A stretch of 64,000 bases of DNA from the IMG/VR virus record IMGVR_UViG_3300032235_000467, one strand, 5' to 3'. This stretch comes from a virus. Both the position numbers and the translations under genes were made by a program. Each line of letters opens with the position of its first letter. The stretch's first letter is position 1. Below the pieces are notes generated by a model that was not told the DNA's origin, did not search any database, and saw only the letters and a program-made list of their open reading frames with translations. This document shows positions 5,038-63,559 of this stretch, one piece after another.

Positions 5038-5049
5038 AAAATAAAAAAT

Positions 5050-5226: not shown

Positions 5227-5240
5227 TAAAAATAATTACG

Positions 5241-5248
5241 TATATTTG
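5241..5248 (+). promoter_or_regulatory. Bacteroidota-type -7 promoter element (TATATTTG)
   Basis: Matches TAnnTTTG, 18 nt before the ATG at 5267; flanked by the inverted repeat TTACGTA/TACGTAA; no clear -33 box. Confidence 0.5.
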
Positions 5249-5266
5249 TACGTAAAATAAATTGTC

Positions 5267-7960
5267 ATGAAACAAAGGTTATTATTTATAGCCCCGCACC
5301 TCTCTACTGGAGGCATGCCGCAATACCTCTATAAGCAAATTGTAGCTCTTTTAGAGGACTTTGACGTTTATTGTATAGAATGGGACAACGTAACAGGGGG
5401 AGTCCTTGTAGTACAGCGTAATAGAATCCTAGAGGCATTGGGAGATAGACTCATTACATTAGGAGAAGACAAGACAGAACTCCTAAACTATGTCAATAAT
5501 AAAATAAAGCCAGACATAGTGCATCTACAGGAGATACCTGAAATGTTTATGGGGTATGGAATAGCTGAAAAGTTATACGCAACTGATCGGAAATACCGAA
5601 TAGTTGAGACCTCTCACGACTCTAGCTACGATGTAACTAAAAAAAGTCACTTCCCTGACAAGTTCATGATGGTAAGTCAGTATCAGGTAGAGGCTTATAA
5701 GAGCTTAAATATACCATGTGAGCTCGTAGAATATCCTATAGAGGATAAAACCAGAACAAAAACTAGAGAAGAACTGATGTCTGAATTAGGATTAGATCCT
5801 AATAAAAAGCATGTCATAACAGTAGGTCTATTCACTCCTAGAAAGAATCAAGCAGAGGTAGTAGAGTACGCAAGAATGCTACAGGATCAACCTATACAAT
5901 TTCATTTTATAGGTAATCAAGCAGACAATTTTAAGTACTATTGGGAGCCTATAATGAAGGATTTCCCATCTAATTGCACATGGTGGGGAGAGAGAAGTGA
6001 CGTAGATACCTTCTATCAAATGGCTGATCTATTTCTGTTTACGTCTAGAGGATTTGCTACAGATAAGGAGACAATGCCGCTAGTAATTAGGGAGGCTATT
6101 AGTTGGAAAGTACCGTCTTTAATATACAACCTTGATGTATATTTACACTACTTTAACAAATATGGCAATATTGGATACCTAAACACCAGTGATAAAATTG
6201 ACAATATATTAAAAATATTAAATAAGTTAGAATTAGATAAGTTAGAAGTAAAAGAAAATAATATGTTTTATACTTTAGAAGGAGAAAAAGATCTAGCTTC
6301 ATACGAATATCCAAACAGTATGTACGAATCTATGATTAAATATGGAGATGCCGCTGGAATTTATTGGGCTACATATTTGTATCATGAGTTGTGTAGATTT
6401 GATGTATGTGTTGAGGAGGGAGATGTATTTGTAGACTTGGGAACAAATATAGGAATATCATCAAAATACGCATTGTTACATGGTGCAAAAGAAGTACATT
6501 GTTTTGAACCAGACCCTGTACTTATAGAACTTATTAAGAAAAATGTCCCATCCAGCGAAATATATCAATATGCTATCGATAGTAAAAGCGAGGAGTTTGA
6601 ATTATATCATTGGCCTTATAATCCAGTAAACGAGGGGCCTAAATATAAATGTAAAAGTGTCACATTAAGAGAGGTATTAAGCCTAGTTAATAAACCAATA
6701 GACTATTTAAAAATAGATATTGAAGGGTTTGAACATAATATCTTTGACGACTTAACATATGAAGAATGTTCCAAATTTAAAAAACTGTTTGTTGAACATC
6801 ATATGCCGGAAAAAACCAATGATTTTTGTGAAGTTTTAAAGAGCAAAGGGTATAACCTTAGTGTTGAGTATGGAAATGGGCAAAATTATATATATGCTAA
6901 ACATGAGAATCCATATTATACAGACAAAAAACAAAATAAAGATCAAATACTGAAAAAAATAACTATGGATAATAAACAGCCTTCTTATAACTTTTGGAGT
7001 AAATGGGATAAGGACGAACAGCAAATGCATTTTGGGGCATATGAAAATGTTAATGAACCCTTAATAGTATCTTTAAGAGAGTATATGTCTGATGGGGTTT
7101 TATGGTCCTCTGATTATGCTTATATGCCAAAAGACGTGGCTTTTTGGATGATTCCTATTAATAAAGGATTATTTGATTACGAAAAAGATATTAATTATGC
7201 AGGAATAAAGATTTGTATATATAAAAAGAAAGACGGAAAAAAAGTATACGAGCAACCGTATTTCAGCAAATTTGTAGATGTACCCAGAGTTACCTTAAGT
7301 AACAGTATTCCATATTATTTAAACTATACTGAATTCTTTATACATGATAAATACGCTAGGTATTTTCGTAAAAAATATCACAATGTAGTTGATGTAGGAG
7401 CTAACGTAGGAGTATTCACAGAGTATTTGATACAAAATGAACATACAGAAAAAGTAATAGCAGTTGAGTGTGATTCAAAAGCTTTATACGATCTAACTAG
7501 AAATTTTAAAAGAGAGTATAGGGTAGAAATAGAGCCAAAAGCTTTGTATCACGAAAATACAAAAATAACATTCTACCATTCAGAAGAAAACCCTGTAATT
7601 AGTAGTACTATAGCTCCTGATAAGTTAGTTAATCATATGGCTGGAGTTAAAGGACAAGATGTTGTAGAAGTAGAAACAATCACTATTAGAGACCTTGTAA
7701 ACAAGTTAGGGTATATTGATTTGTTAAAAATAGACATAGAAGGAGGAGAGTACGAAGTAATAGAAAACCTGGATCCTAATTTGTTTAATCATATCAATAA
7801 TTTTCTAATAGAATGTCATTTCTTTGAATCTGATTATAAAGTAAAGTACGATAATCTTATAGATAAATTAAGAAATGGAGGATATATAGTAGAGGAGTTT
7901 TTGAAAGATCAATCTAGTAATTCAGGAACTAGCGAAGTAATATTTGCATCAAAAATTTAA
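5267..7960 (+). CDS. GT4 glycosyltransferase fused to two FkbM-family methyltransferase domains
   Basis: N-terminal GT-B (PHLSTGGMPQY, VGLFTPRKNQ, ADLFLFTS..ETMPLVIREA). Two FkbM domains: VDLGTNIG...YLKIDIEGFE and VDVGANVG...LLKIDIEGGE. Confidence 0.85.
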   Translation: MKQRLLFIAPHLSTGGMPQYLYKQIVALLEDFDVYCIEWDNVTGGVLVVQRNRILEALGDRLITLGEDKTELLNYVNNKIKPDIVHLQEIPEMFMGYGIAEKLYATDRKYRIVETSHDSSYDVTKKSHFPDKFMMVSQYQVEAYKSLNIPCELVEYPIEDKTRTKTREELMSELGLDPNKKHVITVGLFTPRKNQAEVVEYARMLQDQPIQFHFIGNQADNFKYYWEPIMKDFPSNCTWWGERSDVDTFYQMADLFLFTSRGFATDKETMPLVIREAISWKVPSLIYNLDVYLHYFNKYGNIGYLNTSDKIDNILKILNKLELDKLEVKENNMFYTLEGEKDLASYEYPNSMYESMIKYGDAAGIYWATYLYHELCRFDVCVEEGDVFVDLGTNIGISSKYALLHGAKEVHCFEPDPVLIELIKKNVPSSEIYQYAIDSKSEEFELYHWPYNPVNEGPKYKCKSVTLREVLSLVNKPIDYLKIDIEGFEHNIFDDLTYEECSKFKKLFVEHHMPEKTNDFCEVLKSKGYNLSVEYGNGQNYIYAKHENPYYTDKKQNKDQILKKITMDNKQPSYNFWSKWDKDEQQMHFGAYENVNEPLIVSLREYMSDGVLWSSDYAYMPKDVAFWMIPINKGLFDYEKDINYAGIKICIYKKKDGKKVYEQPYFSKFVDVPRVTLSNSIPYYLNYTEFFIHDKYARYFRKKYHNVVDVGANVGVFTEYLIQNEHTEKVIAVECDSKALYDLTRNFKREYRVEIEPKALYHENTKITFYHSEENPVISSTIAPDKLVNHMAGVKGQDVVEVETITIRDLVNKLGYIDLLKIDIEGGEYEVIENLDPNLFNHINNFLIECHFFESDYKVKYDNLIDKLRNGGYIVEEFLKDQSSNSGTSEVIFASKI

Positions 7961-7962
7961 TT

Positions 7963-8790
7963 ATGGTTTTATTTTTATATAGTGACATAAATTGTGAACA
8001 TCAAGCTGTATCATGTATCAAATCATTGTCCAGTAAGATAACAGATGACGTTAAAATAGTTTATTATACTGTAGGATTTGAAAGTTCGTTTGAATTTAAA
8101 AATCTATATAAAATAAAAATAGATTATAAACCCCAATATCCAACTTTTCACTATTACAAAGCGGAGCTGTCCTTATTAACAATGAGGATGTTTCCTAACG
8201 AGTATTATATGTTTTCAGATACGGACATATTATATTCTAGAAGATTTTCTTTTGATAAGATTAAGAGTAATCTATCATACCCTCTAGCTAGTTTTGGGCC
8301 ACATGAATATCCGTATTTATGGGAAAAAAGGGGAGATGTTACTACTATATTTGATGAATCAAAACTAATGGAGTATTTTAATGTTAAAGAAAGATCTCAA
8401 AGATATGTGTGGTCATGTATATATTCTTTCAGTGAACAGACAACAGAGTTTTTTGAAGAGTATACGTCTATGTGCAATAATAGGTATTTGTTAGATAGAA
8501 GACGAGATTATTATCCTATGCACGATGAAACTTCTTTTAACGTTTGTCTTTGGAAAAGAGGAGCAAATAAAAACTTAGGATTTGCATTTTTAAATACTCA
8601 TATATTTGAGTCAGTAAAAAAAACTGAGGAAAATTATATAAAAGATCAAAGGTTAGGTGTTAATGTAGACGATCATGGAAACGATTGGGAGTATATTCAT
8701 GATTCTAAAAATATTATAGGATATCATGGATTTAAAGAAAAAGACTCTATGGAAAAAACATTAAACTACTTACTAAATGAAAATAGTTAA
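7963..8790 (+). CDS. Putative GT-A fold glycosyltransferase (GT8-like)
   Basis: YYKAEL...MFSDTD (DxD) motif, HDETSFNV and late YHGFK motifs; lies inside the GT cluster. Confidence 0.6.
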   Translation: MVLFLYSDINCEHQAVSCIKSLSSKITDDVKIVYYTVGFESSFEFKNLYKIKIDYKPQYPTFHYYKAELSLLTMRMFPNEYYMFSDTDILYSRRFSFDKIKSNLSYPLASFGPHEYPYLWEKRGDVTTIFDESKLMEYFNVKERSQRYVWSCIYSFSEQTTEFFEEYTSMCNNRYLLDRRRDYYPMHDETSFNVCLWKRGANKNLGFAFLNTHIFESVKKTEENYIKDQRLGVNVDDHGNDWEYIHDSKNIIGYHGFKEKDSMEKTLNYLLNENS

Positions 8791-10858
8791 TGTAACCCCA
8801 GGTCTGATCCCAATTCCTCCTAACGGTTGGGGAGCTGTAGAGAAGATTATATGGGAAACCCACAAAGCACTGTTAAAACTAGGGCATGATGCTACAATAG
8901 AGTACTTAGATGATGTAAAAGACTATGATGTAGTCCATATTCATGTAGCTAACCTTGCAAATATCGCACATGAAAGAGGCATTCCTTACTATTTTACTAT
9001 GCATGACCACCATGCGTATCTATATGGAAAAGACTCAGAAGTTTTCAAAGAAAACATGCTTGCGATCAAAAATGCCAAAAAAGCATTCGTCCCAGCAAAA
9101 TTCTTGGTCGGTTATTTTGGAAACATACCGGAATATTTCTCACATGGAGTTAACACAGACTACTTCAAACCTAGTAAATCTAGTCCTCATAAGCTACTTT
9201 GTGTCGCTAATAATGGGTTTATACACAATCAGTCTGAAGATAGAAAGGGTTTTGGTTTAGCTATAGAGGCCGCAAAGAATTTAAACCTTCCTATAACAAT
9301 AGCAGGGCCTAGCAATAACAAAAAATATTTTGAGAAGTACCCACCAGACTACGATAAGCTAACTATACTGTATGATTTGACTGAAGATGAATTGAAAAAT
9401 CTTTATAAAGATCATACTTGTTTTATTCATATGTCTATTCTAGAAGCTGGACACCCTAATTTAACCTTATTAGAGGCTATGGCTTCAGGATTACCAATTA
9501 TTGGTACATATGAAGAGGATAATTCATTAGAAGGTATGATTAAAGTAGAAAGAAATGTGGAACAGATGATAAAAGCTATAGTAGAAGTACTATGGGATCC
9601 TTTTACATACGGTATATATTCTGAAAAAGCAAGACAACAAGCCCTAGATTTATCTTGGGACAACAGAACAAAAGAACTATTAAAACATTACAAAATGACT
9701 CTTAGAGATCAAATGGTAAACAGTTATAGAAATACTAATATTTTAAATATAAAATCTAAATCACATGCTCCTACCTTCAATATGAATTTTATAGAAGGTG
9801 CTTTTTTTGAAATATTAGGAGGTCCCGATAGGGAATATACTGTTCAGTTTATAAACAAAAAAACTGGAGAAATAGCACATAAATCTGATATAAAAAAGGA
9901 TCATTGGGTAAAAGCATCCATTTCATATTTTGTAGATTGGGACATATTTGTAGATGATGGTCTGAGTTCTTATGATTTCAAGCCTGATTATACAGGTAAA
10001 AGAGTGTATGTGGCTTTAGATTCAAAAGCCCTTGGGGATACCCTAGCTTGGTTTCCATATGTAGAAGAATTTAGAAAGAAGCACAATTGCAAGATGGTAT
10101 GTTCTACCTTTTGGAATCACTTCTTTGAATCAGAGTACCCAGAAATTGAGTTTGTAAAACCTGGGGAAGTGGTACATAATCTATATGCTATGTACACTTT
10201 AGGGTGGTTCTACAATGCAGATGGGTCTTTTAATATTTTAAAGACACCGGGAGATTTTAGGGATCAGTCTCTTCAAAAGACAGCTTCAGATATACTAGGG
10301 TTGGAATTTGAGGAGATTAGACCAAAGATTAAAAAGCCTGTTGCTGGTCTAAAAGAAAAGAAAGTAACGATTGCAATGCATTCTACAGCACAATGCAAGT
10401 ATTGGAACAATAAAACTGGATGGCAAGAATTGGTTGACAATCTGTTATTAAATGGATATGAAGTAGTAATGGTATCAAAAGAAGAGGATGGATATATGGG
10501 AAATAAATACCCCAAAGGAGTTACACTATTGATGGATACCAGTCTAGAGTCAGTAATGTTTGAAATGCTAACCTCTCAAATGTTTATTGGTATAAGCAGC
10601 GGACTAAGCTGGCTAGCCTGGTCTTTAGGAGTAAATACCTGCTTAATATCCGGAATAACCAAGCCTGAGTCTGATTTTACCCCAACCGTGAGGATTTCAC
10701 CTAAAGAATCGGTATGTAGGTTCTGTTTCAATAAAGAGAAGCTAGATGCAGGGGATTGGAACTGGTGTCCTAAGCATAAAGGAACAGATAGACAGTTTGA
10801 GTGTACAAAGACTATAACTGCACAGGATGTAATAGCAGAAATATATAAAATGCTGTAA
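8777..10858 (+). CDS. GT4 glycosyltransferase fused to Aah/TibC-family autotransporter O-heptosyltransferase
   Basis: N-half GT4 (IPPNGWGAVEKIIWE, EAGHPNLTLLEAMASGLPII). C-half has ALGDTLAWFPY, STAQCKYWNN..GW, FIGISSGLSWLAW and CRFC...WCPKHKGTDRQFECTKTIT, matching the iron-binding four-Cys motif of Aah/TibC. Confidence 0.85.
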   Translation: MKIVNVTPGLIPIPPNGWGAVEKIIWETHKALLKLGHDATIEYLDDVKDYDVVHIHVANLANIAHERGIPYYFTMHDHHAYLYGKDSEVFKENMLAIKNAKKAFVPAKFLVGYFGNIPEYFSHGVNTDYFKPSKSSPHKLLCVANNGFIHNQSEDRKGFGLAIEAAKNLNLPITIAGPSNNKKYFEKYPPDYDKLTILYDLTEDELKNLYKDHTCFIHMSILEAGHPNLTLLEAMASGLPIIGTYEEDNSLEGMIKVERNVEQMIKAIVEVLWDPFTYGIYSEKARQQALDLSWDNRTKELLKHYKMTLRDQMVNSYRNTNILNIKSKSHAPTFNMNFIEGAFFEILGGPDREYTVQFINKKTGEIAHKSDIKKDHWVKASISYFVDWDIFVDDGLSSYDFKPDYTGKRVYVALDSKALGDTLAWFPYVEEFRKKHNCKMVCSTFWNHFFESEYPEIEFVKPGEVVHNLYAMYTLGWFYNADGSFNILKTPGDFRDQSLQKTASDILGLEFEEIRPKIKKPVAGLKEKKVTIAMHSTAQCKYWNNKTGWQELVDNLLLNGYEVVMVSKEEDGYMGNKYPKGVTLLMDTSLESVMFEMLTSQMFIGISSGLSWLAWSLGVNTCLISGITKPESDFTPTVRISPKESVCRFCFNKEKLDAGDWNWCPKHKGTDRQFECTKTITAQDVIAEIYKML

Positions 10859-10876
10859 GATATAGAGTTTTCAGTC

Positions 10877-10885
10877 ATATTTATA
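10877..10885 (+). promoter_or_regulatory. Putative phage late promoter ATATTTATA
   Basis: Motif recurs upstream of many structural genes (also 17409, 25884, 29794, 32092, 33293, 35136, 36185). Confidence 0.6.
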
Positions 10886-10888
10886 TAC

Positions 10889-10925
10889 GCCTATATAGGC
10901 CAGCGAAAGCTGCGTGTAAATACAC
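10889..10925 (+). promoter_or_regulatory. Structured 5' leader: three adjacent 4-bp tetraloop hairpins
   Basis: GCCT-ATAT-AGGC, CAGC-GAAA-GCTG, then C, then GTGT-AAAT-ACAC, between the promoter motif and the ATG at 10942. Confidence 0.5.
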
Positions 10926-10941
10926 TTAGAGACTCATACAT

Positions 10942-16581: not shown

Positions 16582-17387
16582 TGCCAATAACTTTTTTAAA
16601 TAGAAATAACTCAGGAAATCTATCACTTATCAATAGAAGTAACAGCGGTAGACTAAGTATGACAGTAGGAACTTCTATTGTAACAGCAGGATTAGTATTA
16701 AATTTAGATGCTGGTAATCCATCTTCTTATCCTGGTAGTGGAACTACTTGGACAGATTTAACCGTAAATGGGTTCAATGCTTCTATGACCGGTAGCGTTA
16801 GTTATAATAATACACCTCCTCAATATTTTGACTATGCTAATCTTCCAAATTATTTTGTTGGTAATAATAATCTTACTTCTGTAATAAGCACTGCTATAAC
16901 AATTACATCTTGGATAAATGTACGTAATATAGCATCAAGAAGTGTTGTGTTTGATAAATACCAAACACCAACTCTCCCTGCTGGGTATGTTCTTGAAGTA
17001 GGAACAGTCTCCTCCCTTTGGACTAATACAGTAAGATTTTTTGCAGTAGGTTCTACTGGAGATGGTTGGGACCCTAGAGGAGTAAGTAATGCTATACAAG
17101 AGAATGTCCCATGTATGGTATCAGTAACATTAGATCGTACTGCACAACAATCTTCATTGTATGTAAATGGTTCAAGTATATCATATACACAAGGTGGAGG
17201 CCCTATTACTAATTTAGCTTCTAATTGGGCTACAGGAACTAATGTATATACTTTGGGGTCATATCGACCTGACTCTGCTATAGACTCAAACATGTATCAG
17301 TATAATCTATTAATATATAATAGAGCTTTATCCGCATCTGAAATCCTACAAAACTATAATGCACAAAAATCAAAATTTGGGTTATAA
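16581..17387 (+). CDS. LamG/concanavalin A-like lectin-fold virion protein
   Basis: Start at TAATG overlap (16581). GLVLNLDAGNPSSYPGSGTTWTDL...IYNRALSASEILQNYNA is a typical phage LamG-like domain. Confidence 0.8.
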   Translation: MPITFLNRNNSGNLSLINRSNSGRLSMTVGTSIVTAGLVLNLDAGNPSSYPGSGTTWTDLTVNGFNASMTGSVSYNNTPPQYFDYANLPNYFVGNNNLTSVISTAITITSWINVRNIASRSVVFDKYQTPTLPAGYVLEVGTVSSLWTNTVRFFAVGSTGDGWDPRGVSNAIQENVPCMVSVTLDRTAQQSSLYVNGSSISYTQGGGPITNLASNWATGTNVYTLGSYRPDSAIDSNMYQYNLLIYNRALSASEILQNYNAQKSKFGL

Positions 17388-17408
17388 AAAGTATTACTCT
17401 AGATCCTT

Positions 17409-17417
17409 ATATTTATA
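17409..17417 (+). promoter_or_regulatory. Putative phage late promoter ATATTTATA
   Basis: Intergenic copy of the recurrent motif, 33 nt before ATG 17451. Confidence 0.6.
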
Positions 17418-17450
17418 AATGTCTGTTGGAAAGTGAAAACAGTATAAAAT

Positions 17451-20207
17451 ATGCCAAACGAGTTCAAAGTTAAGAATGGCCTGATTGTAGACCAAGGAGG
17501 AGCCAATATAACAGGTTCTTCTGCTATATCAGGATCTTTAGACATTGCTGGCAGCGTAACTGCGACTAACTTTACCGGATCTTTATTTGGTACAGCAAGT
17601 TGGGCTGCAAATTTTAAGGAAACAGACCCAGTATTTTCATCCAAGTCAGCTAGTTTAGCCACTACAGGATCTAATTCATTTTTTGGAGATCAATATATAA
17701 CAGGATCTTTAAACCTGTCATCTAGTGGAATCCACTATATAAGTGGACTGGTAACAGCTTCAAGTACTATTCATGTAAACGTAACACAGCCTGTCCTAGC
17801 TTTAGATACAAGAGGTAGAATACTGTACTCTAACTTCTTCTCAACTACTGCAAGTTTACCGGATCCTAACTTGTACCATGGTATGTTTACCCATGTACAT
17901 AATGAAGGATCAGCATATTATTCACACGGGTCTAATGGTTGGGTAAGATTATGGGACAGATTTAACAGTCCTAATTTAATTAGCGGATCACAAGTACCAG
18001 CTAATATAGTAGGACAAGCAATTGCTCCTCTAAGCGTAAGCGCATCTTCTTTTGTAAGTGCTAGTGAATTTTTTGGTAGCGGTAGCGGAATAGTAGGAGT
18101 CATATCATCTTCATATTCAGTAACAGCATCCAATGGACTGTTATTTAATAGCACATCCTCAGAAAGATTTGCAACCACAGGATCTAACACATTTATAGGA
18201 AATCAAATAGTAACTGGTAGTTTATACACTAGCGGGTCTAATAGATTAGTAGGGCCTACAGAATTAACAGGTTCTTTAGGAATATCTGGTAGCCAGATTA
18301 TAAAAGGGTATGTGCAATTCATGCCTGTTACTACAAACATAGACACATCAATAACTGCATCTTATATCTATGTATCAGGTTCTACTAATGATTTGTATTT
18401 CTCTCAAAACGGTGATGGGTATAATAACGTAACTCGTTTACGTTGGTTAGAAGGCAACTTATATACAGGATTATTACATGGAGGTTTAATTACAGCTGCT
18501 ACAGGATCTACTATATATCAAGTTAGTAGCGGTAGTGGTATAATTGTTAATATAAATGCAAGCTTAACTGCCAATCCATACCCTACTATTAAATATGTAA
18601 ACTGGGGTAATTTAACAGCTAGTATTGCACCACTTACTGCATCATATCAACAAGCATTTGTATCTATTGATTCGAATGGTAGTATTTACCAACAAGGCAT
18701 ACCATACGCTTCCGAACAATTTGATACATCAATTAACATAGGAGTTGTATTATTTCAAAACGGATCTACAATTAATGGTGTTAAAACACAACCATCCACA
18801 GCATATGGTTTTGAACAACAACAAAATATATTTAATAGGGCATTTGGACCTTTAAAATTATCAGGGTATACTTTAGCACCTAGTGGTTCTTCAACACGCA
18901 GTTTAATAGTAGCAGGTGGTACAGCTTACTCACCTGGTTCTAACTATTCTGTAGATCCAAATAATCCATCCTACACTACTGATAGTGGAACTAATGTATC
19001 TAAAATATTCAGATATAGACAATCAGGTTCTACTTGGGTATATGATACAAATGCAGGTGCAGGTTATACAACAATTGATCCAACACAATATTCAAACAAT
19101 GGTGTATTAACAGCAGTACCAGGAGGAGGATCAAATAGAGAATTTTCTATTCAAAGAGTATTTTATTTCCCTAATAGTGTAGCTAAAGCTATAGTCGTTT
19201 ATTATGGTAATGCTACATACGCAAGTCTAACAGATGCAACATCAAATATTTCTTTTGAACCGTTTGTTGAAGCACCAAATACTGCAGCAAACGCAATTTA
19301 TTTAGGGGCAATTATTGTAAGAAATAACGCTGATTTTACAGTTACTGACTCATATGCTATTCAGACAGCAGGTCTATTTAGGTCAGTAGGAGGATCAGGA
19401 GGCGGAGGATCGGTAGTAACTCAAACTTTATCAGGACTTTCTGATGTAAATATATCAGGACCAACAAATGGACAACCATTAGTTTATGATTCGACTGCTG
19501 CTAAATGGGAAAATAAATCAACACTAACAGCAACATTAATAGGTAATGCTAGCACAGCTACAACTGCATCTTACGCATTAATAGCTAAAAGTATAGAAGG
19601 CATTATAACTAGCGCTTCTTATGCATTAACGGCTTCTTATGTACTTAATGCTATAAGTGCATCATATTCTGCTACTGCATCATATGTACTAAACTCTATA
19701 AGTTCTTCATACGCTGCTACTGCATCTTTTGTAGCCACTGCATCAAACGCAATATCTTCTTCATATGCAGTAACAGCAAGTTATGTAGCAACCCTAAATA
19801 AAAAAGTAAGAACTACTATTCCAATAACAGCAGTACAAGGACAGACTACCCTTATAACAAACATACCTGCATTAGTGGATGAAGTAGGAACTGAATTAAG
19901 AATTAGGGAAAATCTATTAAATGCCGTATCTTGCAGTATGTCTGCTAGGGTTGAACAAGCTACTGGTGGTGCTATTGGTCATTTAAAGATTCAATATTCA
20001 ACAGATGAATCTACTTGGAATGATCTTAATGCAAATAAAGTAGATCTAGGAACAGTCGGGACTCAATTAACAACAGAAGAAGCAATTCCATCTGGAGCAA
20101 AGACAACCGGTACTTATATAAGATTAGTAACAATAAGTGGAGATGGTACGGCAGCTAGTAATGCCAGATTTGGAAATGTAACTTTAAATATAATTTACGA
20201 TATATAA
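17451..20207 (+). CDS. Virion fibre/structural protein (918 aa)
   Basis: MPNEFKVKNGL start; Ser/Thr-rich TGS/SGS strands; TASYA repeats; LSGLSDVNISGPTNGQPLVYD motif typical of phage fibres. Confidence 0.7.
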   Translation: MPNEFKVKNGLIVDQGGANITGSSAISGSLDIAGSVTATNFTGSLFGTASWAANFKETDPVFSSKSASLATTGSNSFFGDQYITGSLNLSSSGIHYISGLVTASSTIHVNVTQPVLALDTRGRILYSNFFSTTASLPDPNLYHGMFTHVHNEGSAYYSHGSNGWVRLWDRFNSPNLISGSQVPANIVGQAIAPLSVSASSFVSASEFFGSGSGIVGVISSSYSVTASNGLLFNSTSSERFATTGSNTFIGNQIVTGSLYTSGSNRLVGPTELTGSLGISGSQIIKGYVQFMPVTTNIDTSITASYIYVSGSTNDLYFSQNGDGYNNVTRLRWLEGNLYTGLLHGGLITAATGSTIYQVSSGSGIIVNINASLTANPYPTIKYVNWGNLTASIAPLTASYQQAFVSIDSNGSIYQQGIPYASEQFDTSINIGVVLFQNGSTINGVKTQPSTAYGFEQQQNIFNRAFGPLKLSGYTLAPSGSSTRSLIVAGGTAYSPGSNYSVDPNNPSYTTDSGTNVSKIFRYRQSGSTWVYDTNAGAGYTTIDPTQYSNNGVLTAVPGGGSNREFSIQRVFYFPNSVAKAIVVYYGNATYASLTDATSNISFEPFVEAPNTAANAIYLGAIIVRNNADFTVTDSYAIQTAGLFRSVGGSGGGGSVVTQTLSGLSDVNISGPTNGQPLVYDSTAAKWENKSTLTATLIGNASTATTASYALIAKSIEGIITSASYALTASYVLNAISASYSATASYVLNSISSSYAATASFVATASNAISSSYAVTASYVATLNKKVRTTIPITAVQGQTTLITNIPALVDEVGTELRIRENLLNAVSCSMSARVEQATGGAIGHLKIQYSTDESTWNDLNANKVDLGTVGTQLTTEEAIPSGAKTTGTYIRLVTISGDGTAASNARFGNVTLNIIYDI

Positions 20208-23200
20208 TGCCAAAGTATACTATATTTTCAAATATTATAAGTGGTAGCAGTGCAGCTATAACATCTATTACTGGATCGTTATTAGGTAATGCATCTACTG
20301 CAACTACTGCATCTCATGCACTGACAGCTTCTTCTGCGGATAATTTTACTGTAAGAGGAACACTGACAGCACAAACTATAGTAGCTCAGACCATTACATC
20401 GTCTACCGATTTTGTTACTGGATCTACTAGATTTGGTAGCGTCGCTTCAAATACACATCAATTTACCGGCTCAGTAAGTATAACAGGATCTCTTACTATA
20501 AACGGAACATCTTATACTGCTGCTACATCCGGAACAAGCGGTACTTCAGGAACCGCAGGATCGTCCGGTAGCTCAGGATCTACAGGTACATCTGGTACTG
20601 CAGGTTCTAGCGGGTCTTCCGGCAGCACAGGTAGTAGCGGAACATCAGGCACTGCCGGTACAACGGGTACTAGCGGTACCTCTGGTTCATCTGGATCTAG
20701 CGGATCTTCAGGATCTACAGGAACATCTGGCTCAACTGGTACCTCAGGTACATCAGGAAGTTCTGGATCCTCCGGATCAACTGGCTCATCAGGAACTTCA
20801 GGTACTTCTGGAAGCAGTGGATCTTCTGGTTCTACTGGTACTTCTGGATCAACTGGTTCTTCCGGCTCGGCGGGAAGTAGCGGTACTTCTGGATCAACTG
20901 GAACATCTGGTTCTACTGGAACTAGCGGAAGTTCAGGATCCTCTGGATCTACAGGCACCAGTGGTACTTCAGGTTCTACAGGAACTAGCGGATCATCAGG
21001 TTCTTCGGGTACCAGCGGTACTTCTGGATCTACTGGTACATCAGGAAGCACAGGAACATCTGGCTCAACAGGAACATCAGGATCTAGTGGGTCATCTGGT
21101 TCTTCAGGGTCGTCTGGATCATCTGGTACAGGTTTCACCACAATAAATAACCCTGCTATAGGAAGGGTATTGCTTGCTGATAACTCAACAAATGCAGCAA
21201 CAGCTTCCGCAGTATTAACTATAAACAATGGAAACGTAGTTGTTTCTGGTAGCACTGTTATAACAGGCTCCTTAACTGTAACTAATACTATTAATGCGCT
21301 AACATTAGTAGTACAAACTATATCTTCCTCAGTAGAATTTGTTACAGGGTCTACTAAATTTGGTAGTATAATATCAAATACACATCAATTTACAGGTTCT
21401 GTAAGTATATCAGGATCTTTATCTTTAAATGGAACATCTTTTGCTGCAGCCACTTCAGGAACTTCAGGAACTAGTGGTATAAATGGTACTAGTGGCTCTT
21501 CTGGAAGCTCTGGTTCTAGTGGAACATCTGGCTCAACTGGTACATCAGGTACTTCTGGTAGCAGCGGTTCTACAGGAACGTCAGGATCTAGTGGCACTTC
21601 AGGAGTTAATGGTACATCTGGTTCAAGTGGAACTAGTGGGTCTACCGGCTCTTCAGGTTCATCTGGTAGTACAGGTACTAGCGGATCAACAGGAACTTCT
21701 GGTTCTACAGGTACATCTGGCTCAACTGGAACTAGCGGTAGCTCCGGATCTTCAGGTTCTACTGGAACTTCTGGAACCTCAGGATCTACTGGAACTAGTG
21801 GGTCTTCTGGTAGCACAGGAACAAGTGGCTCTAGTGGTACTTCTGGAGCAAACGGTTCTTCAGGAACTTCAGGAACTAGCGGTACATCTGGCTCTAGTGG
21901 TACGAGTGGTGTAAATGGTAGTTCTGGTACATCTGGTAGCACAGGCACTTCAGGATCTTCTGGATCATCAGGATCATCTGGATCTACCGGTACATCAGGA
22001 AGCTCTGGCTCAACTGGATCATCTGGTAGTAGTGGATCTACGGGATCCAGTGGTACTGCAGGTACTTCTGGTACTAGCGGACAAACAGGATCTTCTGGTT
22101 CAAGTGGTTCTTCCGGCACTAGCGGGACCTCAGGTACATCAGGAACTTCTGGAACTTCTGGTAGTTCAGGGTCTACAGGTACATCAGGCTCTAGTGGTTC
22201 AACAGGATCATCTGGAAGTAGCGGTAGTACAGGTACATCGGGCAGCAGTGGTACTTCAGGTACTAGTGGAACATCCGGTTCATCTGGTACAGGATTCAAT
22301 ACAATAAATAATCCTGCTATAGGAAGAGTCCTCATAGCAGATGCTTCAACTAATTCAGCTACAGCTTCAGCAATATTAACCGTTAACAACGGAGCTGTTA
22401 GCATGTCAGGCAGTACATTTATTACTGGATCATTAACAGTAACTAATACTATTAATGCTTTAACATTAGTTGTACAGACTATATCATCTTCAATAGAATT
22501 TGTAACTGGATCTACTAGATTTGGTAGTACAATTTCTAACAATCATGAGTTTACCGGTAGTGTTAGAATTAGCGGATCTTTATTTATAAACGGTACATCA
22601 TACACTGCCGCTACTTCTGGAACTAGTGGTACTACAGGAACATCAGGAAGTTCTGGATCCTCAGGTAGTTCTGGTTCAACTGGAACTAGTGGCACAGCAG
22701 GAACGGCTGGTACTACAGGAACATCAGGAACAGCAGGATCTTCTGGAAGTGCAGGCTCATCTGGCTCTACAGGTACCAGCGGATCTACAGGTACTTCAGG
22801 ATCTTCTGGTTCTTCAGGAACTACTGGAACATCAGGTAGTACAGGTACTAGTGGTTCTAGTGGTACTTCTGGAGCAAACGGTTCTTCAGGAACTTCTGGA
22901 ACTTCAGGAAGCTCTGGCTCAACTGGTTCTTCTGGTTCTTCTGGTTCTTCTGGTTCTTCTGGTTCTACAGGTACTTCTGGTACTTCAGGTACCGCAGGAA
23001 GCTCTGGATCTTCTGGCTCATCAGGAAATACAGGCTCTTCTGGAAGTAGTGGTTCTACAGGTACTTCGGGGTCTAGTGGTTCAACAGGAACTAGCGGCAC
23101 AGCAGGAACCTCAGGATCTAGTGGATCCTCTGGATCAACTGGAACATCTGGTTCAACTGGTACTTCAGGCACCTCTGGATCAACTGGTTCTTCTGGTACA

Positions 23201-24907
23201 TCTGGTTCTACTGGTACATCAGGTACTAGTGGTTCATCTGGAACAGGATTTAATACTATCAATAGCCCTGCTATCGGTAGAGTCCTTATAGCAGATGCCT
23301 CAACTAACGCTGCAACTGCTTCAGTTATACTAACTGTCAATAATGGCGCAGTTAGTGTATCTGGAAGTACAATTATCACTGGATCTTTAACAGTGACTAA
23401 TACGATAAATGCTTTAACATTAGTAGTACAAACTATAAGCTCTTCTGTAGAGTTTGTAACAGGGTCAACTAGGTTTGGCAGCACTATATCCAATAACCAT
23501 GAATTTACAGGCAGCTTAAGAATTAGCGGATCTTTATTCATAAACGGAACATCCTATACTGCTGCCACATCAGGAACTAGTGGAACATCAGGCAGCTCCG
23601 GAACTTCAGGATCTACTGGTTCATCTGGTAGTTCAGGAACTAGCGGAACTTCTGGTTCTACCGGTACTAGCGGTTCAACAGGAACTTCTGGAACATCAGG
23701 AACTACAGGATCTTCTGGTTCTACAGGTTCATCTGGATCTTCTGGATCTACAGGGTCAAGTGGATCCTCAGGTAGTACAGGAACTTCTGGAACTAGTGGC
23801 ACTTCAGGAACTACAGGTTCGTCTGGATCTTCCGGTAGCACAGGTTCTAGTGGATCTACAGGCACAAGTGGATCTACTGGAACATCAGGTAGTACAGGTA
23901 GTTCAGGCTCTACTGGCTCATCAGGGTCTACCGGAACATCAGGAACTTCTGGTAGTACTGGATCCTCTGGATCAACTGGTACTTCCGGTAGCACAGGTAC
24001 TAGCGGTTCAACAGGAACTTCAGGCTCGTCTGGAACAGGATTCAATACAATAAACAGTCCTGCTATAGGAAGAGTTTTAATAGCAGATGCCACAAATAAT
24101 GCAGCTACTGCATCGGCAATACTTACTGTAAATAATGGAGCCGTTAGTGTCTCAGGTAGTACAATTATAACAGGATCTTTAAGTATATCTGGTAGTAGTG
24201 GGACTACTTTATTTTCTTCAAACGTAGACACGTTAATATTAACAGGATCTGCTATAGTAACAGGATCTGTTATTGTAACTGGATCAGTATCTATAAACAA
24301 TCTAACTCTTAACTCAGGATTAACTAGATTTGTAGTAGTTGATCCAACAACAGGACAGTTATTTTATAATACATCAGGAGGTGGAGCAGGGTCCGCTGGT
24401 TCATCAGGATCCTCAGGTTCTAGCGGATCAAGCGGTTCTTCTGGATCTTCTGGTTCTACAGGGTCAAGTGGATCCTCAGGTACAACAGGATCTTCTGGAT
24501 CTTCAGGAACATCAGGATTATCTAGTTTATCTCTAACAGTAGCTGATGGAGGTGTTATACAAGGCACAGGCATTACCTATTTAGAATTTGCTACTAATAT
24601 ATCGGCAACTGTAACCAATACAACAGCGTCTATTAGTGCAACTGGTGGAGGCGGTGGTGGAGGACTAGCTACAAAAGCTGGATCAATAGCCAATAGTTCT
24701 TTCACTGGTAACCCTAAGAAGTCCACAGTAACCTTTGCAGCAGCATTTACAGATGCAAACTATGCAGTGGCGGTAACTGGAGAAGATGCTAGATCATGGA
24801 CTATAGAAAGTAAAGCAGCAGGAAGCTTTATAATAAACGCAAATAGTAATGCCGGATTAGCAGGAAGTACTAATTGGGTGGCAGTTAAACATGGAGAAAC
24901 AGCCTAA
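20207..24907 (+). CDS. Giant virion fibre protein (1566 aa) with five Gly-Ser/Thr collagen-like blocks
   Basis: Shares the triplet blocks and 108-aa spacer with 10942..16581; small C-terminal beta domain (VTFAAAFTDANYAVAVT). Confidence 0.8.
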   Translation: MPKYTIFSNIISGSSAAITSITGSLLGNASTATTASHALTASSADNFTVRGTLTAQTIVAQTITSSTDFVTGSTRFGSVASNTHQFTGSVSITGSLTINGTSYTAATSGTSGTSGTAGSSGSSGSTGTSGTAGSSGSSGSTGSSGTSGTAGTTGTSGTSGSSGSSGSSGSTGTSGSTGTSGTSGSSGSSGSTGSSGTSGTSGSSGSSGSTGTSGSTGSSGSAGSSGTSGSTGTSGSTGTSGSSGSSGSTGTSGTSGSTGTSGSSGSSGTSGTSGSTGTSGSTGTSGSTGTSGSSGSSGSSGSSGSSGTGFTTINNPAIGRVLLADNSTNAATASAVLTINNGNVVVSGSTVITGSLTVTNTINALTLVVQTISSSVEFVTGSTKFGSIISNTHQFTGSVSISGSLSLNGTSFAAATSGTSGTSGINGTSGSSGSSGSSGTSGSTGTSGTSGSSGSTGTSGSSGTSGVNGTSGSSGTSGSTGSSGSSGSTGTSGSTGTSGSTGTSGSTGTSGSSGSSGSTGTSGTSGSTGTSGSSGSTGTSGSSGTSGANGSSGTSGTSGTSGSSGTSGVNGSSGTSGSTGTSGSSGSSGSSGSTGTSGSSGSTGSSGSSGSTGSSGTAGTSGTSGQTGSSGSSGSSGTSGTSGTSGTSGTSGSSGSTGTSGSSGSTGSSGSSGSTGTSGSSGTSGTSGTSGSSGTGFNTINNPAIGRVLIADASTNSATASAILTVNNGAVSMSGSTFITGSLTVTNTINALTLVVQTISSSIEFVTGSTRFGSTISNNHEFTGSVRISGSLFINGTSYTAATSGTSGTTGTSGSSGSSGSSGSTGTSGTAGTAGTTGTSGTAGSSGSAGSSGSTGTSGSTGTSGSSGSSGTTGTSGSTGTSGSSGTSGANGSSGTSGTSGSSGSTGSSGSSGSSGSSGSTGTSGTSGTAGSSGSSGSSGNTGSSGSSGSTGTSGSSGSTGTSGTAGTSGSSGSSGSTGTSGSTGTSGTSGSTGSSGTSGSTGTSGTSGSSGTGFNTINSPAIGRVLIADASTNAATASVILTVNNGAVSVSGSTIITGSLTVTNTINALTLVVQTISSSVEFVTGSTRFGSTISNNHEFTGSLRISGSLFINGTSYTAATSGTSGTSGSSGTSGSTGSSGSSGTSGTSGSTGTSGSTGTSGTSGTTGSSGSTGSSGSSGSTGSSGSSGSTGTSGTSGTSGTTGSSGSSGSTGSSGSTGTSGSTGTSGSTGSSGSTGSSGSTGTSGTSGSTGSSGSTGTSGSTGTSGSTGTSGSSGTGFNTINSPAIGRVLIADATNNAATASAILTVNNGAVSVSGSTIITGSLSISGSSGTTLFSSNVDTLILTGSAIVTGSVIVTGSVSINNLTLNSGLTRFVVVDPTTGQLFYNTSGGGAGSAGSSGSSGSSGSSGSSGSSGSTGSSGSSGTTGSSGSSGTSGLSSLSLTVADGGVIQGTGITYLEFATNISATVTNTTASISATGGGGGGGLATKAGSIANSSFTGNPKKSTVTFAAAFTDANYAVAVTGEDARSWTIESKAAGSFIINANSNAGLAGSTNWVAVKHGETA
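20525..24517 (+). repeat. Five (S/T)-(S/T)-Gly blocks: 20525-21127 (67), 21452-22288 (93), 22613-23242 (70), 23567-24034 (52), 24392-24517 (14 triplets)
   Basis: Each block length is divisible by 9 nt; period-3 Gly; first four blocks separated by 324-nt spacers. Confidence 0.9.
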
Positions 24908-53304: not shown

Positions 53305-53308
53305 TATC

Positions 53309-61301: not shown

Positions 61302-61310
61302 TCAACTGTT

Positions 61311-62594: not shown

Positions 62595-62621
62595 CTCAAA
62601 AAAATAAAAAACAAAAATAGC

Positions 62622-63110: not shown

Positions 63111-63111
63111 T

Positions 63112-63555: not shown

Positions 63556-63559
63556 TATC

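What the first reader, a model, noticed from the sequence alone, without database searches (positions are those of the whole stretch)
5267..24907. Candidate phage-encoded protein O-glycosylation system for Ser/Thr collagen-like virion fibres
Seen: three consecutive genes carry four glycosyltransferase domains and two FkbM methyltransferase domains. They sit inside the virion fibre module, and the last ends 83 nt before the first of two giant fibres that hold about 570 (S/T)(S/T)G triplets (over 1000 hydroxyl residues). Established: Aah/TibC enzymes hyper-glycosylate Ser in repetitive proteins encoded next to them, and glycosylated Thr can stabilise collagen triple helices that lack hydroxyproline (vent-worm cuticle collagen). 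Inference: the TibC-like domain primes Ser/Thr, the GT4 and GT-A enzymes extend the glycan and the FkbM domains O-methylate it. This would give long glycan-coated virion filaments for stability, shielding or adhesion. I do not know of a characterised phage system like this.
Basis: partly seen in the sequence, partly recalled or inferred. Interest (0 to 1): 0.92.

Follow-up and report, generated by a model that had tools for sequence, protein, structure and literature searches.

The report
Phage enzymes likely sugar-coating collagen-like fibres
A large uncultured tailed phage encodes a sugar-adding and methylating enzyme set, including a true relative of the E. coli adhesin-glycosylating enzyme TibC, right before two giant proline-free Gly-Ser/Thr-Ser/Thr fibre genes; the same pairing recurs in many phages and some bacteria, so the phage most likely glycosylates its own fibres, but nobody has shown this by experiment.

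Summary
There are three tightly packed genes: GT4+FkbM+FkbM; a GT-A-fold DxD protein; and GT4 fused to a TibC/Aah-type (BAHT) domain. The last ends 83 nt before the first of two fibres, which hold 569 Gly-X-Y triplets with 1,096 Ser/Thr and no Pro in the arrays.

The BAHT call is solid: TIGR04414 scores 270 bits against a cut-off of 200, and TibC (PDB 4RAP) matches at E 2e-49. The catalytic Asp, beta-phosphate Thr/Lys, Trp305 and the four iron-finger Cys are all kept. Arg286, the adenine contact that explains ADP-sugar use, is Val here, so the donor sugar-nucleotide is unknown.

Comparative genomics supports the link:
- All phage BAHT-like domains, plus 24 bacterial ones, form one clade.
- 44 of its 79 members have an S/T Gly-X-Y array within 10 kb. 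None of 59 classical autotransporter-linked BAHTs does.
- In bacteria the partner is a small secreted protein that is little more than the array.
- Loci found by the repeat alone often carry the enzyme.
- Fused proteins join all the enzyme domains.

No glycan has been demonstrated, and the roles of GT4, GT-A and FkbM are inferred. This scan has noted the same system on other DNA (at least 53 genomes). I found no paper describing it.

The parts
5267..7960 (+). P0001, 897 aa. GT4 glycosyltransferase (about residues 1-330), FkbM methyltransferase (about 374-541), a linker of unknown function (about 560-690), and a second FkbM (709-874).
   Evidence: Pfam PF00534 61.9 bits and PF05050 90.7 bits in 2 stretches. 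TIGR01444 146.8 bits in 2 stretches. phrog_8156 methyltransferase, 2 stretches.
7963..8790 (+). P0002, 275 aa. A GT-A-fold glycosyltransferase-like protein with an invariant DxD motif (D86, D88). Its family has no Pfam model.
   Evidence: No family hit. 121 representatives in the 1.84-billion-protein library. Invariant K66, D86, D88, E189, H255. AlphaFold with alignment gives pLDDT 94.7. Foldseek matches GT6 alpha-1,3-GalT and ABO transferases at probability 1.0, TM about 0.5. Found fused to GT4, FkbM and BAHT domains in P0129, P0146 and P0186.
8777..10858 (+). P0003, 693 aa. An N-terminal GT4 domain (about 1-300) fused to a C-terminal TibC/Aah-type (BAHT) protein O-glycosyltransferase domain.
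   Evidence: Pfam PF00534 33.7 bits and PF01075 28.2 bits. TIGR04414 270.3 bits against a cut-off of 200. TibC 4RAP E 1.8e-49.
9824..10849 (+). The BAHT domain proper (P0003 residues 350-691). It has catalytic Asp421 (TibC D110), Thr537 and Lys541 (T226, K230), Trp612 (W305), and Cys647/650/664/676 (the iron finger). Val593 stands in place of TibC Arg286, and Ser607 in place of Pro300.
   Evidence: Pairwise alignment to TibC. Residue roles from PMC4358343. Conservation across 58 sequences.
10942..16581 (+). Fibre 1 (P0004, 1,879 aa). A 619-aa N-terminal domain with internal repeats is followed by three S/T Gly-X-Y arrays: 12799-13725 (103 triplets), 14050-14850 (89) and 15175-15885 (79). The arrays are separated by 108-aa spacer modules. 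A 231-aa C-terminal domain ends the protein.
   Evidence: The N-terminal domain is conserved directly after the BAHT gene in L002-L009. No PDB sequence relative for the N-terminal, spacer or C-terminal parts.
16548..17387 (+). 279-aa protein with a concanavalin-A-like lectin/glucanase domain (Laminin_G_3). It lies between the two fibres.
   Evidence: Pfam PF13385 33.1 bits. phrog_8510 virion structural protein. Homologues lie near the module in L002, L005-L007, L010, L015.
17451..20207 (+). 918-aa protein between the fibres, with a weak F5/8 type C (discoidin-like) C-terminal match. Probably a structural or adhesion protein.
   Evidence: Pfam PF00754 23.7 bits, below the cut-off. Homologues in L002 and L003.
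20207..24907 (+). Fibre 2 (P0005, 1,566 aa). It has five S/T Gly-X-Y arrays: 20531-21133 (67 triplets), 21458-22294 (93), 22619-23248 (70), 23573-24040 (52) and 24380-24523 (16). Each is preceded by a spacer: 108 aa before the first four and 113 aa before the short fifth. A 127-aa C-terminal domain ends the protein.
24910..25878 (+). 322-aa glycine-rich tail-fibre-like protein directly after fibre 2.
   Evidence: Pfam Gly_rich_2 38.7 bits. phrog_863 tail fiber assembly and phrog_6202 tail fiber protein.
43..3261 (+). Context: tail fibre protein with a T4 gp37-like distal C-terminus, upstream of the enzyme genes.
   Evidence: PHROG tail-fibre families, E down to 5e-24.
29841..32087 (+). Context: contractile tail sheath. 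It places the module in the tail region of a myovirus.
   Evidence: phrog_23 tail sheath E 1.2e-68. In many related loci the sheath lies 2-4 kb from the BAHT gene.

Best explanation
This is a phage-encoded protein O-glycosylation and methylation module whose acceptor is the Gly-Ser/Thr-Ser/Thr arrays of the two adjacent fibres.

Proposed course (inferred unless marked):
1. In the infected cell's cytoplasm, the BAHT domain of P0003 transfers a first sugar from a nucleotide-sugar to Ser/Thr hydroxyls of the newly made fibre chains. Its catalytic Asp, beta-phosphate Thr/Lys and Fe-Cys4 finger are intact (shown by sequence).
2. The fused GT4, the GT4 of P0001 and the GT-A protein P0002 extend the glycan.
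3. The two FkbM domains methylate it.
4. The result would be fibres of the order of 250 nm, built from seven long arrays (52-103 triplets) and one short one (16). All are separated by 108-113-aa modules and carry a dense glycan coat.

The arrays have no Pro and almost no charged residues, so they lack the two known triple-helix stabilisers. The glycan plausibly supplies stability or stiffness, and it also forms the outer surface that meets hosts, enzymes and grazers. The donor sugar is not established. Heptose is the family precedent, but the adenine-binding Arg is Val here.
For: 1. Family membership: TIGR04414 270 bits against a cut-off of 200; TibC E 1.8e-49. D110, K230, W305, C339/342/358/370 and F368 are invariant in 58 phage and bacterial sequences. 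Their roles are taken from PMC4358343.

2. Layout: in Aah/AIDA-I-type loci the enzyme gene lies directly upstream of its substrate gene (L136-L138). Here the gap is 83 nt.

3. Forward test: of 53 IMG/VR loci found through the BAHT domain, the closest ones (at least 43% identity) mostly have a giant S/T Gly-X-Y ORF within 10 kb. The fibre lies on either strand and on either side. For more distant ones the arrays lie about 15 kb or more away in the same record (G021, G022, G032, G027).

4. Reverse test: of 79 loci found only through repeat peptides, 18 carry a BAHT domain in the fetched flank and 6 more carry other module parts. Of 17 further records searched whole, 6 have it, including both 100%-complete genomes.

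5. Tree of 138 domains: one 79-row clade (support 100) holds all phage rows and 24 bacterial rows. 44 of the 79 have arrays within 10 kb, against 0 of 59 classical BAHTs. Bacterial members: 15 of 24 against 0 of 59, Fisher 1e-10.

6. In those bacteria the neighbour, 77-1,088 bp away, is a small signal-peptide or lipobox protein. It is little more than a (GTS)n or (GSS)n array, so the array itself is the only plausible acceptor.

7. Natural fusions: GT4+FkbMx2+P0002-like (P0129), P0002-like+GT4+BAHT (P0146), and all of these plus GT34 (P0186).

8. Precedents: BclA PTG triplets are O-glycosylated on Thr with a methylated sugar chain (PMC6222408). (Gly-Pro-Thr)10 becomes triple-helical only when Thr is galactosylated (PMC11923368).
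Against: - There is no direct evidence of any glycan on any of these fibres.
- The classical BAHT acceptor is Ser in a beta-helical 19-residue repeat, which is a quite different structure from Gly-X-Y.
- Arg286, whose Ala mutant abolished or largely diminished TibC activity, is Val in the window and non-Arg in 34 of 58 sequences.
- Many S/T collagen loci (55 of 79) show no BAHT within the fetched flank. One 79%-complete record (G015) and one 76%-complete record (G002) lack it, so the enzyme may not be obligatory for such fibres.
- One complete bacterial genome (L144) has the enzyme without an adjacent array.
- The association is largely a clade-level trait, so the number of independent events is small.
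- No nucleotide-sugar synthesis genes were found in the window.
Confidence: 0.66

Rival explanations
1. The module glycosylates the fibres or another virion protein, but not on the Gly-X-Y arrays. The acceptor would be the Ser/Thr-rich beta-strand parts: the 108-aa spacer modules, the repeat-bearing N-terminal domain of fibre 1, or neighbouring structural proteins. These are closer in kind to the beta-helix 'strand-loop-strand' acceptors of TibC/Aah.
For: Characterised BAHTs act on beta-helical repeats (PMC4358343). The spacers and N-terminal domain are S/T-rich and predicted beta-rich by their sequence. BAHT-bearing phage loci such as L009, L012 and L030 have no array within 10 kb.
Against: The bacterial partners of the same enzyme clade are small proteins with only a signal peptide, the array and an acidic tail, and no beta-rich module. 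What recurs next to the enzyme across phages is the array, while the non-repeat domains change. Some array-less loci do have arrays further away in the same record.
Confidence: 0.1
2. The enzymes do not modify phage proteins. They build or alter a host envelope glycan (LPS, capsule, S-layer or cell-surface glycoprotein) during infection, for example to block superinfection. Their place among fibre genes would then be an accident of genome organisation.
For: GT4, GT-A and FkbM combinations are typical of polysaccharide and O-antigen clusters (general knowledge). Phage glycosyltransferases that change host serotype are known (cited in PMC12619734). A second glycosyltransferase cluster lies far from the fibres, at 59862-64000.
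Against: The BAHT family is, as far as characterised, a cytoplasmic protein O-glycosyltransferase. There are no membrane-embedded polymerase, flippase or initiating transferase genes in the region. The tight and recurrent adjacency to arrays on both strands and in bacteria is not explained. Fusions join the tailoring domains to the BAHT domain.
Confidence: 0.08
3. The arrays are glycosylated as proposed but are not collagen triple helices. They would be mucin-like, extended, disordered linkers between folded 108-aa beads. In that case the glycan gives stiffness and protease resistance rather than triple-helix stability.
For: There is no Pro and essentially no charged pairs in the arrays, which are the two known stabilisers of bacterial and animal triple helices (PMC11923368). 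Ser dominates the Y position (about 75%), whereas the known stabilising glyco-residue is Thr.
Against: Strict Gly at every third residue is kept without a single frame break over up to 103 triplets, although the DNA repeats have diverged to 60-80%. A disordered linker would not need this. Pfam Collagen matches at E 1e-109 to 1e-120. Fibre proteins are typically trimers (general knowledge).
Confidence: 0.2

Closest known systems
TibC-TibA and Aah-AIDA-I of E. coli (bacterial autotransporter heptosyltransferases, BAHT; TIGR04414; PDB 4RAP/4RB4; PMC4358343)
   Same: Same enzyme family by curated HMM and by 35-38% identity. The catalytic Asp, beta-phosphate Thr/Lys, Trp305, four iron-finger Cys and thumb Phe368 are kept. 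The enzyme gene lies immediately upstream of a long repetitive Ser-rich substrate gene. The precedent is hyper-O-glycosylation of many Ser residues in the cytoplasm.
   Different: The presumed acceptor is a Pro-free Gly-S/T-S/T collagen-like array of a phage fibre, not a beta-helical autotransporter passenger. The enzyme is fused behind a GT4 and travels with FkbM and GT-A partners. Arg286 (adenine N1 contact) is Val. The phage and array-linked enzymes form a clade separated by a long branch from all classical BAHTs.
Mycobacteriophage virion glycosylation (Freeman et al. 2023, Cell Host Microbe; as cited in PMC12619734)
   Same: Phage-encoded glycosyltransferases modify the phage's own virion proteins with O-linked glycans, and a shielding role is proposed.
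   Different: There the acceptors are C-terminal tails of capsid and tail-tube subunits. No BAHT-type enzyme, collagen-like fibre or FkbM pair is involved, and it is experimentally shown. I could not read that paper here, so this comparison rests on the citing text and my own knowledge.
BclA, the collagen-like exosporium filament of Bacillus anthracis (PMC6222408)
   Same: A collagen-like Gly-X-Y filament whose Thr residues in the triplets carry O-linked oligosaccharides that include a methylated sugar. It forms a hair-like outer layer.
   Different: BclA triplets are mostly Pro-Thr-Gly, so they are Pro-rich. The enzymes are unrelated to BAHT. It is a bacterial spore structure, not a phage fibre.
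Glycosylated-Thr collagens: vent-worm cuticle collagen and (Gly-Pro-Thr)10 model peptides (Mann et al. 1996 as cited in PMC11923368)
   Same: Glycosylated Thr in the triplets replaces hydroxyproline as the triple-helix stabiliser. This is the physical rationale for the proposed role of the glycan.
   Different: Those sequences still have Pro in X, Thr in Y and galactose. Here both X and Y are Ser/Thr, with Ser dominant in Y, and the sugar is unknown.

Membership tests
BAHT (TibC/Aah autotransporter O-heptosyltransferase, TIGR04414) | Scores above the curated equivalog cut-off of the family HMM | tested here: met
   270.3 bits against a cut-off of 200, residues 350-691 matching profile positions 25-373 of 374. 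TibC 4RAP E 1.8e-49.
BAHT (TibC/Aah autotransporter O-heptosyltransferase, TIGR04414) | Catalytic base Asp110 and sugar/phosphate contacts Thr226, Lys230, Trp305 | tested here: met
   They correspond to Asp421, Thr537, Lys541 and Trp612 of P0003. D, K and W are invariant and T is T or S in 58 sequences. Roles from PMC4358343.
BAHT (TibC/Aah autotransporter O-heptosyltransferase, TIGR04414) | Arg286 hydrogen-bonding adenine N1, the basis of ADP-sugar specificity | tested here: not met
   Val593 in the window. The column is R in 24, T in 16, V in 13, and A, I or L in 5 of 58 sequences. All classical bacterial BAHTs keep R except two with C.
BAHT (TibC/Aah autotransporter O-heptosyltransferase, TIGR04414) | Four-Cys iron-finger motif (Cys339, 342, 358, 370) | tested here: met
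   Cys647, 650, 664 and 676 are invariant in 58 sequences. Iron binding itself is not testable here.
BAHT (TibC/Aah autotransporter O-heptosyltransferase, TIGR04414) | Ring-shaped dodecamer formed through the beta-hairpin thumb and iron finger | not testable with these tools
   Thumb positions F265 and V266 are Tyr and Met, and F368 is kept. The N-terminal GT4 fusion may alter assembly.
BAHT (TibC/Aah autotransporter O-heptosyltransferase, TIGR04414) | Adjacent autotransporter (AIDA-I/TibA type) substrate gene | tested here: not met
   The downstream gene is a collagen-like fibre with no autotransporter domain. Classical loci L136-L138 have AIDA-I-type neighbours.
BAHT (TibC/Aah autotransporter O-heptosyltransferase, TIGR04414) | Transfers heptose from ADP-heptose to Ser | not testable with these tools
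   No ADP-heptose pathway gene was found in the window. There is no rfaE domain I in three related records. The single GmhA-like SIS hit in a relative sits in a NeuB/DegT-type sugar cluster.
GT4 (Pfam Glycos_transf_1, GT-B retaining) | Pfam gathering score reached | tested here: met
   P0001 scores 61.9 bits and P0003 33.7 bits, against a cut-off of 26.4.
FkbM methyltransferase (PF05050 / TIGR01444) | Family HMM above the cut-off, two separate domains | tested here: met
   PF05050 90.7 bits in 2 stretches. TIGR01444 146.8 bits against a cut-off of 37.7, 2 stretches. The methyl acceptor was not tested.
GT-A fold glycosyltransferase (P0002) | Rossmann-like GT-A fold with a DxD metal/nucleotide-sugar motif | tested here: met
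   Model pLDDT 94.7. Foldseek probability 1.0 to GT6 enzymes, TM 0.43-0.53, identity 8-13%. D86 and D88 invariant. Membership of CAZy family GT6 itself is not established.
Collagen triple helix (PF01391) | Uninterrupted Gly-X-Y repeats | tested here: met
   Eight arrays of 16-103 triplets without a frame break. Pfam E 5e-109 and 9e-120.
Collagen triple helix (PF01391) | Known stabilisers: Pro/Hyp in X/Y, or Lys-Gly-Asp/Glu salt bridges | tested here: not met
   No Pro and no charged residues among the listed X/Y residues. GSS, GTS and GST make up 525 of 569 triplets. Stabiliser rules from PMC11923368.
Collagen triple helix (PF01391) | Forms a trimeric triple helix | not testable with these tools
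   Needs circular dichroism, protease resistance or a solved structure.
Phage virion glycosylation (mycobacteriophage type) | Glycan demonstrated on virion proteins and dependent on phage glycosyltransferases | not testable with these tools
   Only the gene arrangement can be seen here.

The most novel reading that the evidence does not exclude
A distinct branch of the TibC/Aah family, spread between phages and bacteria, is dedicated to Pro-free, charge-free Gly-Ser/Thr-Ser/Thr arrays. Its glycan, with a donor that may not be ADP-heptose, is what makes these sequences fold into stable triple helices. This would define a 'glyco-collagen' class of filaments. In phages it would build tail or whisker fibres hundreds of nanometres long, and in methanotrophs and other Proteobacteria it would build small surface lipoproteins.
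Probability: 0.35. Interest if true: 0.85.

Novelty: new variant of a known kind. Interest (0 to 1): 0.72.

Why it matters
If true, it extends protein hyper-glycosylation by BAHT enzymes from a handful of proteobacterial adhesins to a large set of aquatic phages. It would also identify a second, mechanistically different kind of phage virion glycosylation.

It offers an answer to how collagen-like sequences with neither proline nor salt bridges can be stable. The same enzyme-repeat pair occurs in minimal bacterial form, as one enzyme and one small protein. It also occurs in a cultured Microcystis phage (Mel-JY01). So the idea is directly testable.

Glycan-coated fibres would bear on phage host recognition, on resistance to proteases and on particle stickiness in water. 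The pair could also serve as a tool for making glycosylated collagen-like materials.

Tried and rejected
- Single-sequence AlphaFold of P0002 failed (pLDDT 33). Only the alignment-based model was used.
- Megablast of 24 kb of the window against GenBank phages found nothing, and no whole genome is held for the window. The phage could not be named or its other genes searched.
- A single-protein scan of genome contigs found nothing. The alignment-based scan worked.
I used a referenced array as the query instead.
- PDB sequence searches of the spacer, the N-terminal domain and the C-terminal domain of fibre 1 gave nothing significant.
- The promoter and terminator scan of the enzyme genes and the 83-nt gap gave no more sites than shuffles, so nothing can be said on co-transcription.
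- I planned a co-occurrence test among phages related by tail sheath and dropped it. Only 22 relatives were found, and their contigs begin just downstream of the fibre genes. Assemblies appear to break in the repeats, so absence of the enzyme there means nothing.
- ADP-heptose pathway search in three related records: no rfaE domain I. One GmhA-like SIS hit lies in a NeuB/DegT/GDP-mannose-dehydratase-like cluster, so it is not evidence for heptose.
- DNA glycosylation was considered and set aside. The BAHT family acts on proteins, and nothing in the region suggests modified-base synthesis.
- Literature searches for BAHT or TibC with phage or collagen-like fibres found no relevant paper.


Full report
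**What is there**

The window is part of a large myovirus-like phage with all genes on the + strand. It carries a gp37-like tail fibre (43-3261) and a tail sheath (29841-32087). It also carries a ribonucleotide reductase, family A DNA polymerase, GroEL and helicase. It has no close DNA relative among GenBank phages, and no whole genome is held for it.

Three genes lie between the tail fibre and the sheath, packed with a 2-nt gap and then a 14-nt overlap:
- **P0001 (5267-7960)** has a GT4 domain and two FkbM methyltransferase domains.
- **P0002 (7963-8790)** matches no Pfam, NCBIfam or PHROG model. It belongs to a family of 121 cluster representatives with an invariant DxD. Its alignment-based model (pLDDT 94.7) matches GT-A retaining transferases of family GT6 at Foldseek probability 1.0 and TM about 0.5.
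- **P0003 (8777-10858)** is a GT4 fused to a TibC/Aah-type domain. TIGR04414 scores 270 bits against a cut-off of 200, and TibC 4RAP matches at E 1.8e-49.

**The fibres**

Fibre 1 (10942-16581) starts 83 nt after P0003. Fibre 2 is at 20207-24907. Together they hold 569 Gly-X-Y triplets in eight arrays, seven of 52-103 triplets and one of 16. X and Y are 95-98% Ser/Thr (1,096 residues), there is no Pro in the arrays, and GSS, GTS and GST make up 525 of the triplets.

The arrays are separated by 108-aa modules; the module before the short last array of fibre 2 is 113 aa. The result is a beads-on-a-string design. At the DNA level the repeats are only 60-80% alike. Their periods are mixed multiples of 9 nt, and no indel breaks the Gly phase. 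The periodicity is therefore maintained by selection rather than by recent slippage. At about 0.86 nm per triplet (general knowledge of collagen), each fibre would exceed 230 nm if triple-helical. That figure is an inference.

**Is the TibC-like domain a working member of the family?**

I used the residue roles given in the TibC structure paper (PMC4358343).
- The catalytic base Asp110, the beta-phosphate contacts Thr226 and Lys230, the heptose-O4 contact Trp305, the four iron-finger Cys and thumb residue Phe368 are all present in P0003. All are invariant or nearly so in 58 phage and bacterial sequences.
- The exception is Arg286. In TibC it bonds adenine N1 and was put forward as the reason the enzyme uses an ADP-activated sugar; its Ala mutant abolished or largely diminished activity. 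It is Val in the window and non-Arg in 34 of 58 sequences.
- The position that sets D,D- against L,D-heptose choice (Pro300 in TibC, Ser in Aah) is Ser here.

I therefore treat the domain as a catalytically competent BAHT-family transferase whose donor nucleotide-sugar is open. No sugar-nucleotide synthesis gene was found in the window, but the window is only part of the genome.

**Co-occurrence, forward direction**

A scan of IMG/VR with the BAHT domain gave 53 loci.
- About four fifths have a GT4 fused or directly upstream, and most have FkbM nearby. The enzyme set is a conserved module, often within a few kb of the tail sheath.
- Giant S/T Gly-X-Y ORFs lie within 10 kb in the loci closest to the window. 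They are on the same strand downstream (L002-L008), convergent on the other strand (L010, L015, L023, L029), or upstream.
- A more distant viral subclade showed none within 10 kb. Whole-record searches found arrays about 15 kb or more from the enzyme in several of these and other array-less records (G021, G022, G032, G027; weak in G019).
- Among GenBank phages only three distinct genomes carry the domain. The cultured Microcystis phage Mel-JY01 has a fusion that holds GT4 and TibC-like domains and is annotated as an FkbM methyltransferase. It lies 1.7 kb from a + strand ORF with 202 S/T-rich triplets (Pfam Collagen E 1e-66), and that ORF is not annotated. Megaphage LR756501 has a 35-triplet ORF beside the module. 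LR756504 has the enzyme alone within 20 kb.

**Co-occurrence, reverse direction**

A scan that used only peptides of one array returned 79 loci.
- Profile searches with models built from my own alignments found a BAHT domain in 18 of them and other module parts in 6 more.
- Of 17 of the remaining records searched whole, 6 have the enzyme, 11 kb or more from the array. These include both records rated 100% complete (G001, G003). Most of the others are 5-24% complete fragments.
- Two fairly complete records (G015 at 79%, G002 at 76%) lack it, so the enzyme may not accompany every such fibre.
- Contigs often end inside the fibre genes, which depresses all these counts.

**Bacteria**

An alignment-based scan of one genome per prokaryote species returned 80 loci. 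In a tree of 138 domains rooted on E. coli and Salmonella Aah, 59 classical BAHTs come from Enterobacteria, Burkholderiales, Lentisphaerae, Selenomonadales and others. They are followed by large autotransporter-size genes and have no S/T array nearby.

All phage sequences and 24 bacterial ones fall in a single clade behind a long, fully supported branch. 44 of those 79 rows have an array within 10 kb. For the bacterial rows the count is 15 of 24 against 0 of 59 (Fisher 1e-10).

The bacterial partners lie 77-1,088 bp from the enzyme. They are small proteins with a signal peptide or lipobox, a (GTS)n or (GSS)n run of 12-39 triplets and, in about half of those read, an acidic tail. Nothing else in them could serve as an acceptor. 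Methanotroph sequences nest next to the window's own subclade, which implies exchange between phages and bacteria.

These bacterial pairs lack the GT4/FkbM partners and the phage context. That makes them the strongest argument that the array itself is what this enzyme branch recognises.

**One pathway**

Homologues of P0002 occur as natural fusions:
- with GT4 and two FkbM domains (P0129);
- with GT4 and the BAHT domain (P0146);
- with all of these plus a GT34-type GT-A domain in one 1,867-residue chain (P0186).

This supports the view that the six domains act on one product. The order of action (BAHT primes, GT4 and GT-A extend, FkbM methylates) is inference from what these families usually do.

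**Comparison with what is known**

- The closest family is BAHT (TibC-TibA, Aah-AIDA-I). The enzyme is a member by the curated model and by most defining residues. It fails two features that I could test, the adenine-binding Arg and the autotransporter substrate.
- Phage-encoded virion O-glycosylation is already known in mycobacteriophages (Freeman et al. 2023, as cited in PMC12619734). I could not open that paper.
- BclA shows that Thr in collagen-like triplets can carry methylated oligosaccharides (PMC6222408).
- Model peptides show that glycosylated Thr can turn a random coil into a triple helix (PMC11923368). That paper also notes that salt bridges or Pro normally stabilise prokaryotic and viral collagen-like domains. 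Both are absent here, which gives the glycan hypothesis a physical rationale. It also leaves open that the arrays are mucin-like linkers.
- I found no paper linking BAHT enzymes to phages or to collagen-like repeats.

**Earlier notes of this scan**

The same system has been flagged on other DNA in at least 53 genomes, and several follow-up agents reached the same reading. One note's statement that the pairing recurs in ordinary bacteria gave me the lead for the bacterial test, which I ran independently here. Another note's heptose-pathway lead did not hold for the relatives I could search.

**Verdict**

The functional link between the BAHT-type module and the S/T Gly-X-Y fibres is well supported by comparative genomics.
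- The chemistry (which sugar, which sites, methylation) and the structural role are untested.
- I rate it a new variant of known kinds: BAHT protein glycosylation and phage virion glycosylation.
- Confidence in the main reading is about 0.66.

Noticed in passing
window 59862-64000: A second glycosyltransferase cluster lies far from the fibres, next to replication genes. It has two GT4-like genes (59862-61301 and 61311-62594, the second below the Pfam cut-off) and a GT2 gene cut by the window end (63560-64000). Its target is unknown.
   Followed up: partly
L001 (Microcystis phage Mel-JY01, PP395634.1) 2-3049 + strand: A 1,016-codon open frame with 202 Gly-X-Y triplets (79% S/T; Pfam Collagen E 1.4e-66) is not annotated. 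The record instead annotates two minus-strand ORFs (1-651, 739-2298) and a short + strand ORF (2519-3052) over it. The frame runs off the start of the linear record. This is probably a missed fibre gene beside the GT4-TibC-like fusion annotated as FkbM methyltransferase (4750-8430).
   Followed up: partly
L140-L142, L148-L150, L156-L160, L163, L177 (bacterial genomes and MAGs): Small secreted or lipobox proteins made of (GTS)n or (GSS)n runs lie 77-1,088 bp from a stand-alone BAHT-like gene; about half of those read end in poly-Asp/Glu. They occur in Methylococcales, other Gammaproteobacteria, Burkholderiaceae and a Bradyrhizobium MAG. Some loci have two such genes flanking the enzyme.
   Followed up: partly
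L219 (G025:C1:81000-97000, the record of L015): A related 219-kb phage with a 733-triplet S/T fibre carries a run of sugar-nucleotide genes: GDP-mannose-4,6-dehydratase-like, DegT aminotransferase, epimerase, NeuB-type synthase, SIS isomerase, SDR and a class IV aminotransferase. This resembles nonulosonic-acid pathways. It lies about 40 kb from the BAHT gene.
   Followed up: partly
BAHT alignment column of TibC Arg286 (window Val593, codon about 10553-10555): The residue sorts by clade. It is Arg in all classical BAHTs (two Cys), in the gammaproteobacterial array-linked subclade and in one viral subclade. It is Val, Thr, Ile or Ala in most array-linked phage and methanotroph enzymes. This may mark a change of donor nucleotide.
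   Followed up: partly
L221-L223 against L002-L003 (IMG/VR contigs from the same samples): Contigs that hold the 87-91% identical tail sheath begin 5-9 kb upstream of it. Contigs that hold the 82-86% identical BAHT gene end inside the fibre gene. Assemblies of these phages seem to break in the collagen-like repeats, so fragment-based presence or absence counts are biased low.
   Followed up: no
window 13726-14049 and its copies: The non-collagen spacers between the long arrays are each exactly 108 aa and closely similar in sequence. They are S/T-rich, look beta-strand-rich and have no PDB sequence relative. They may act as registration or nucleation modules for the arrays.
   Followed up: partly
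window 44143-45480 and 53639-55945: Two separate genes match family A DNA polymerase: a 445-aa ORF with a weak DNA_pol_A hit and a 768-aa ORF with strong PHROG DNA polymerase hits. A GroEL-like chaperonin is at 56510-58165 and a MazG pyrophosphohydrolase at 53285-53623.
   Followed up: no
L035 3549-4595: In one viral locus of the array-less BAHT subclade, a 349-codon frame is 53% Ser/Thr, with a 100-residue stretch that is entirely Ser/Thr. It may be another kind of acceptor, or an antisense or low-complexity artefact.
   Followed up: no
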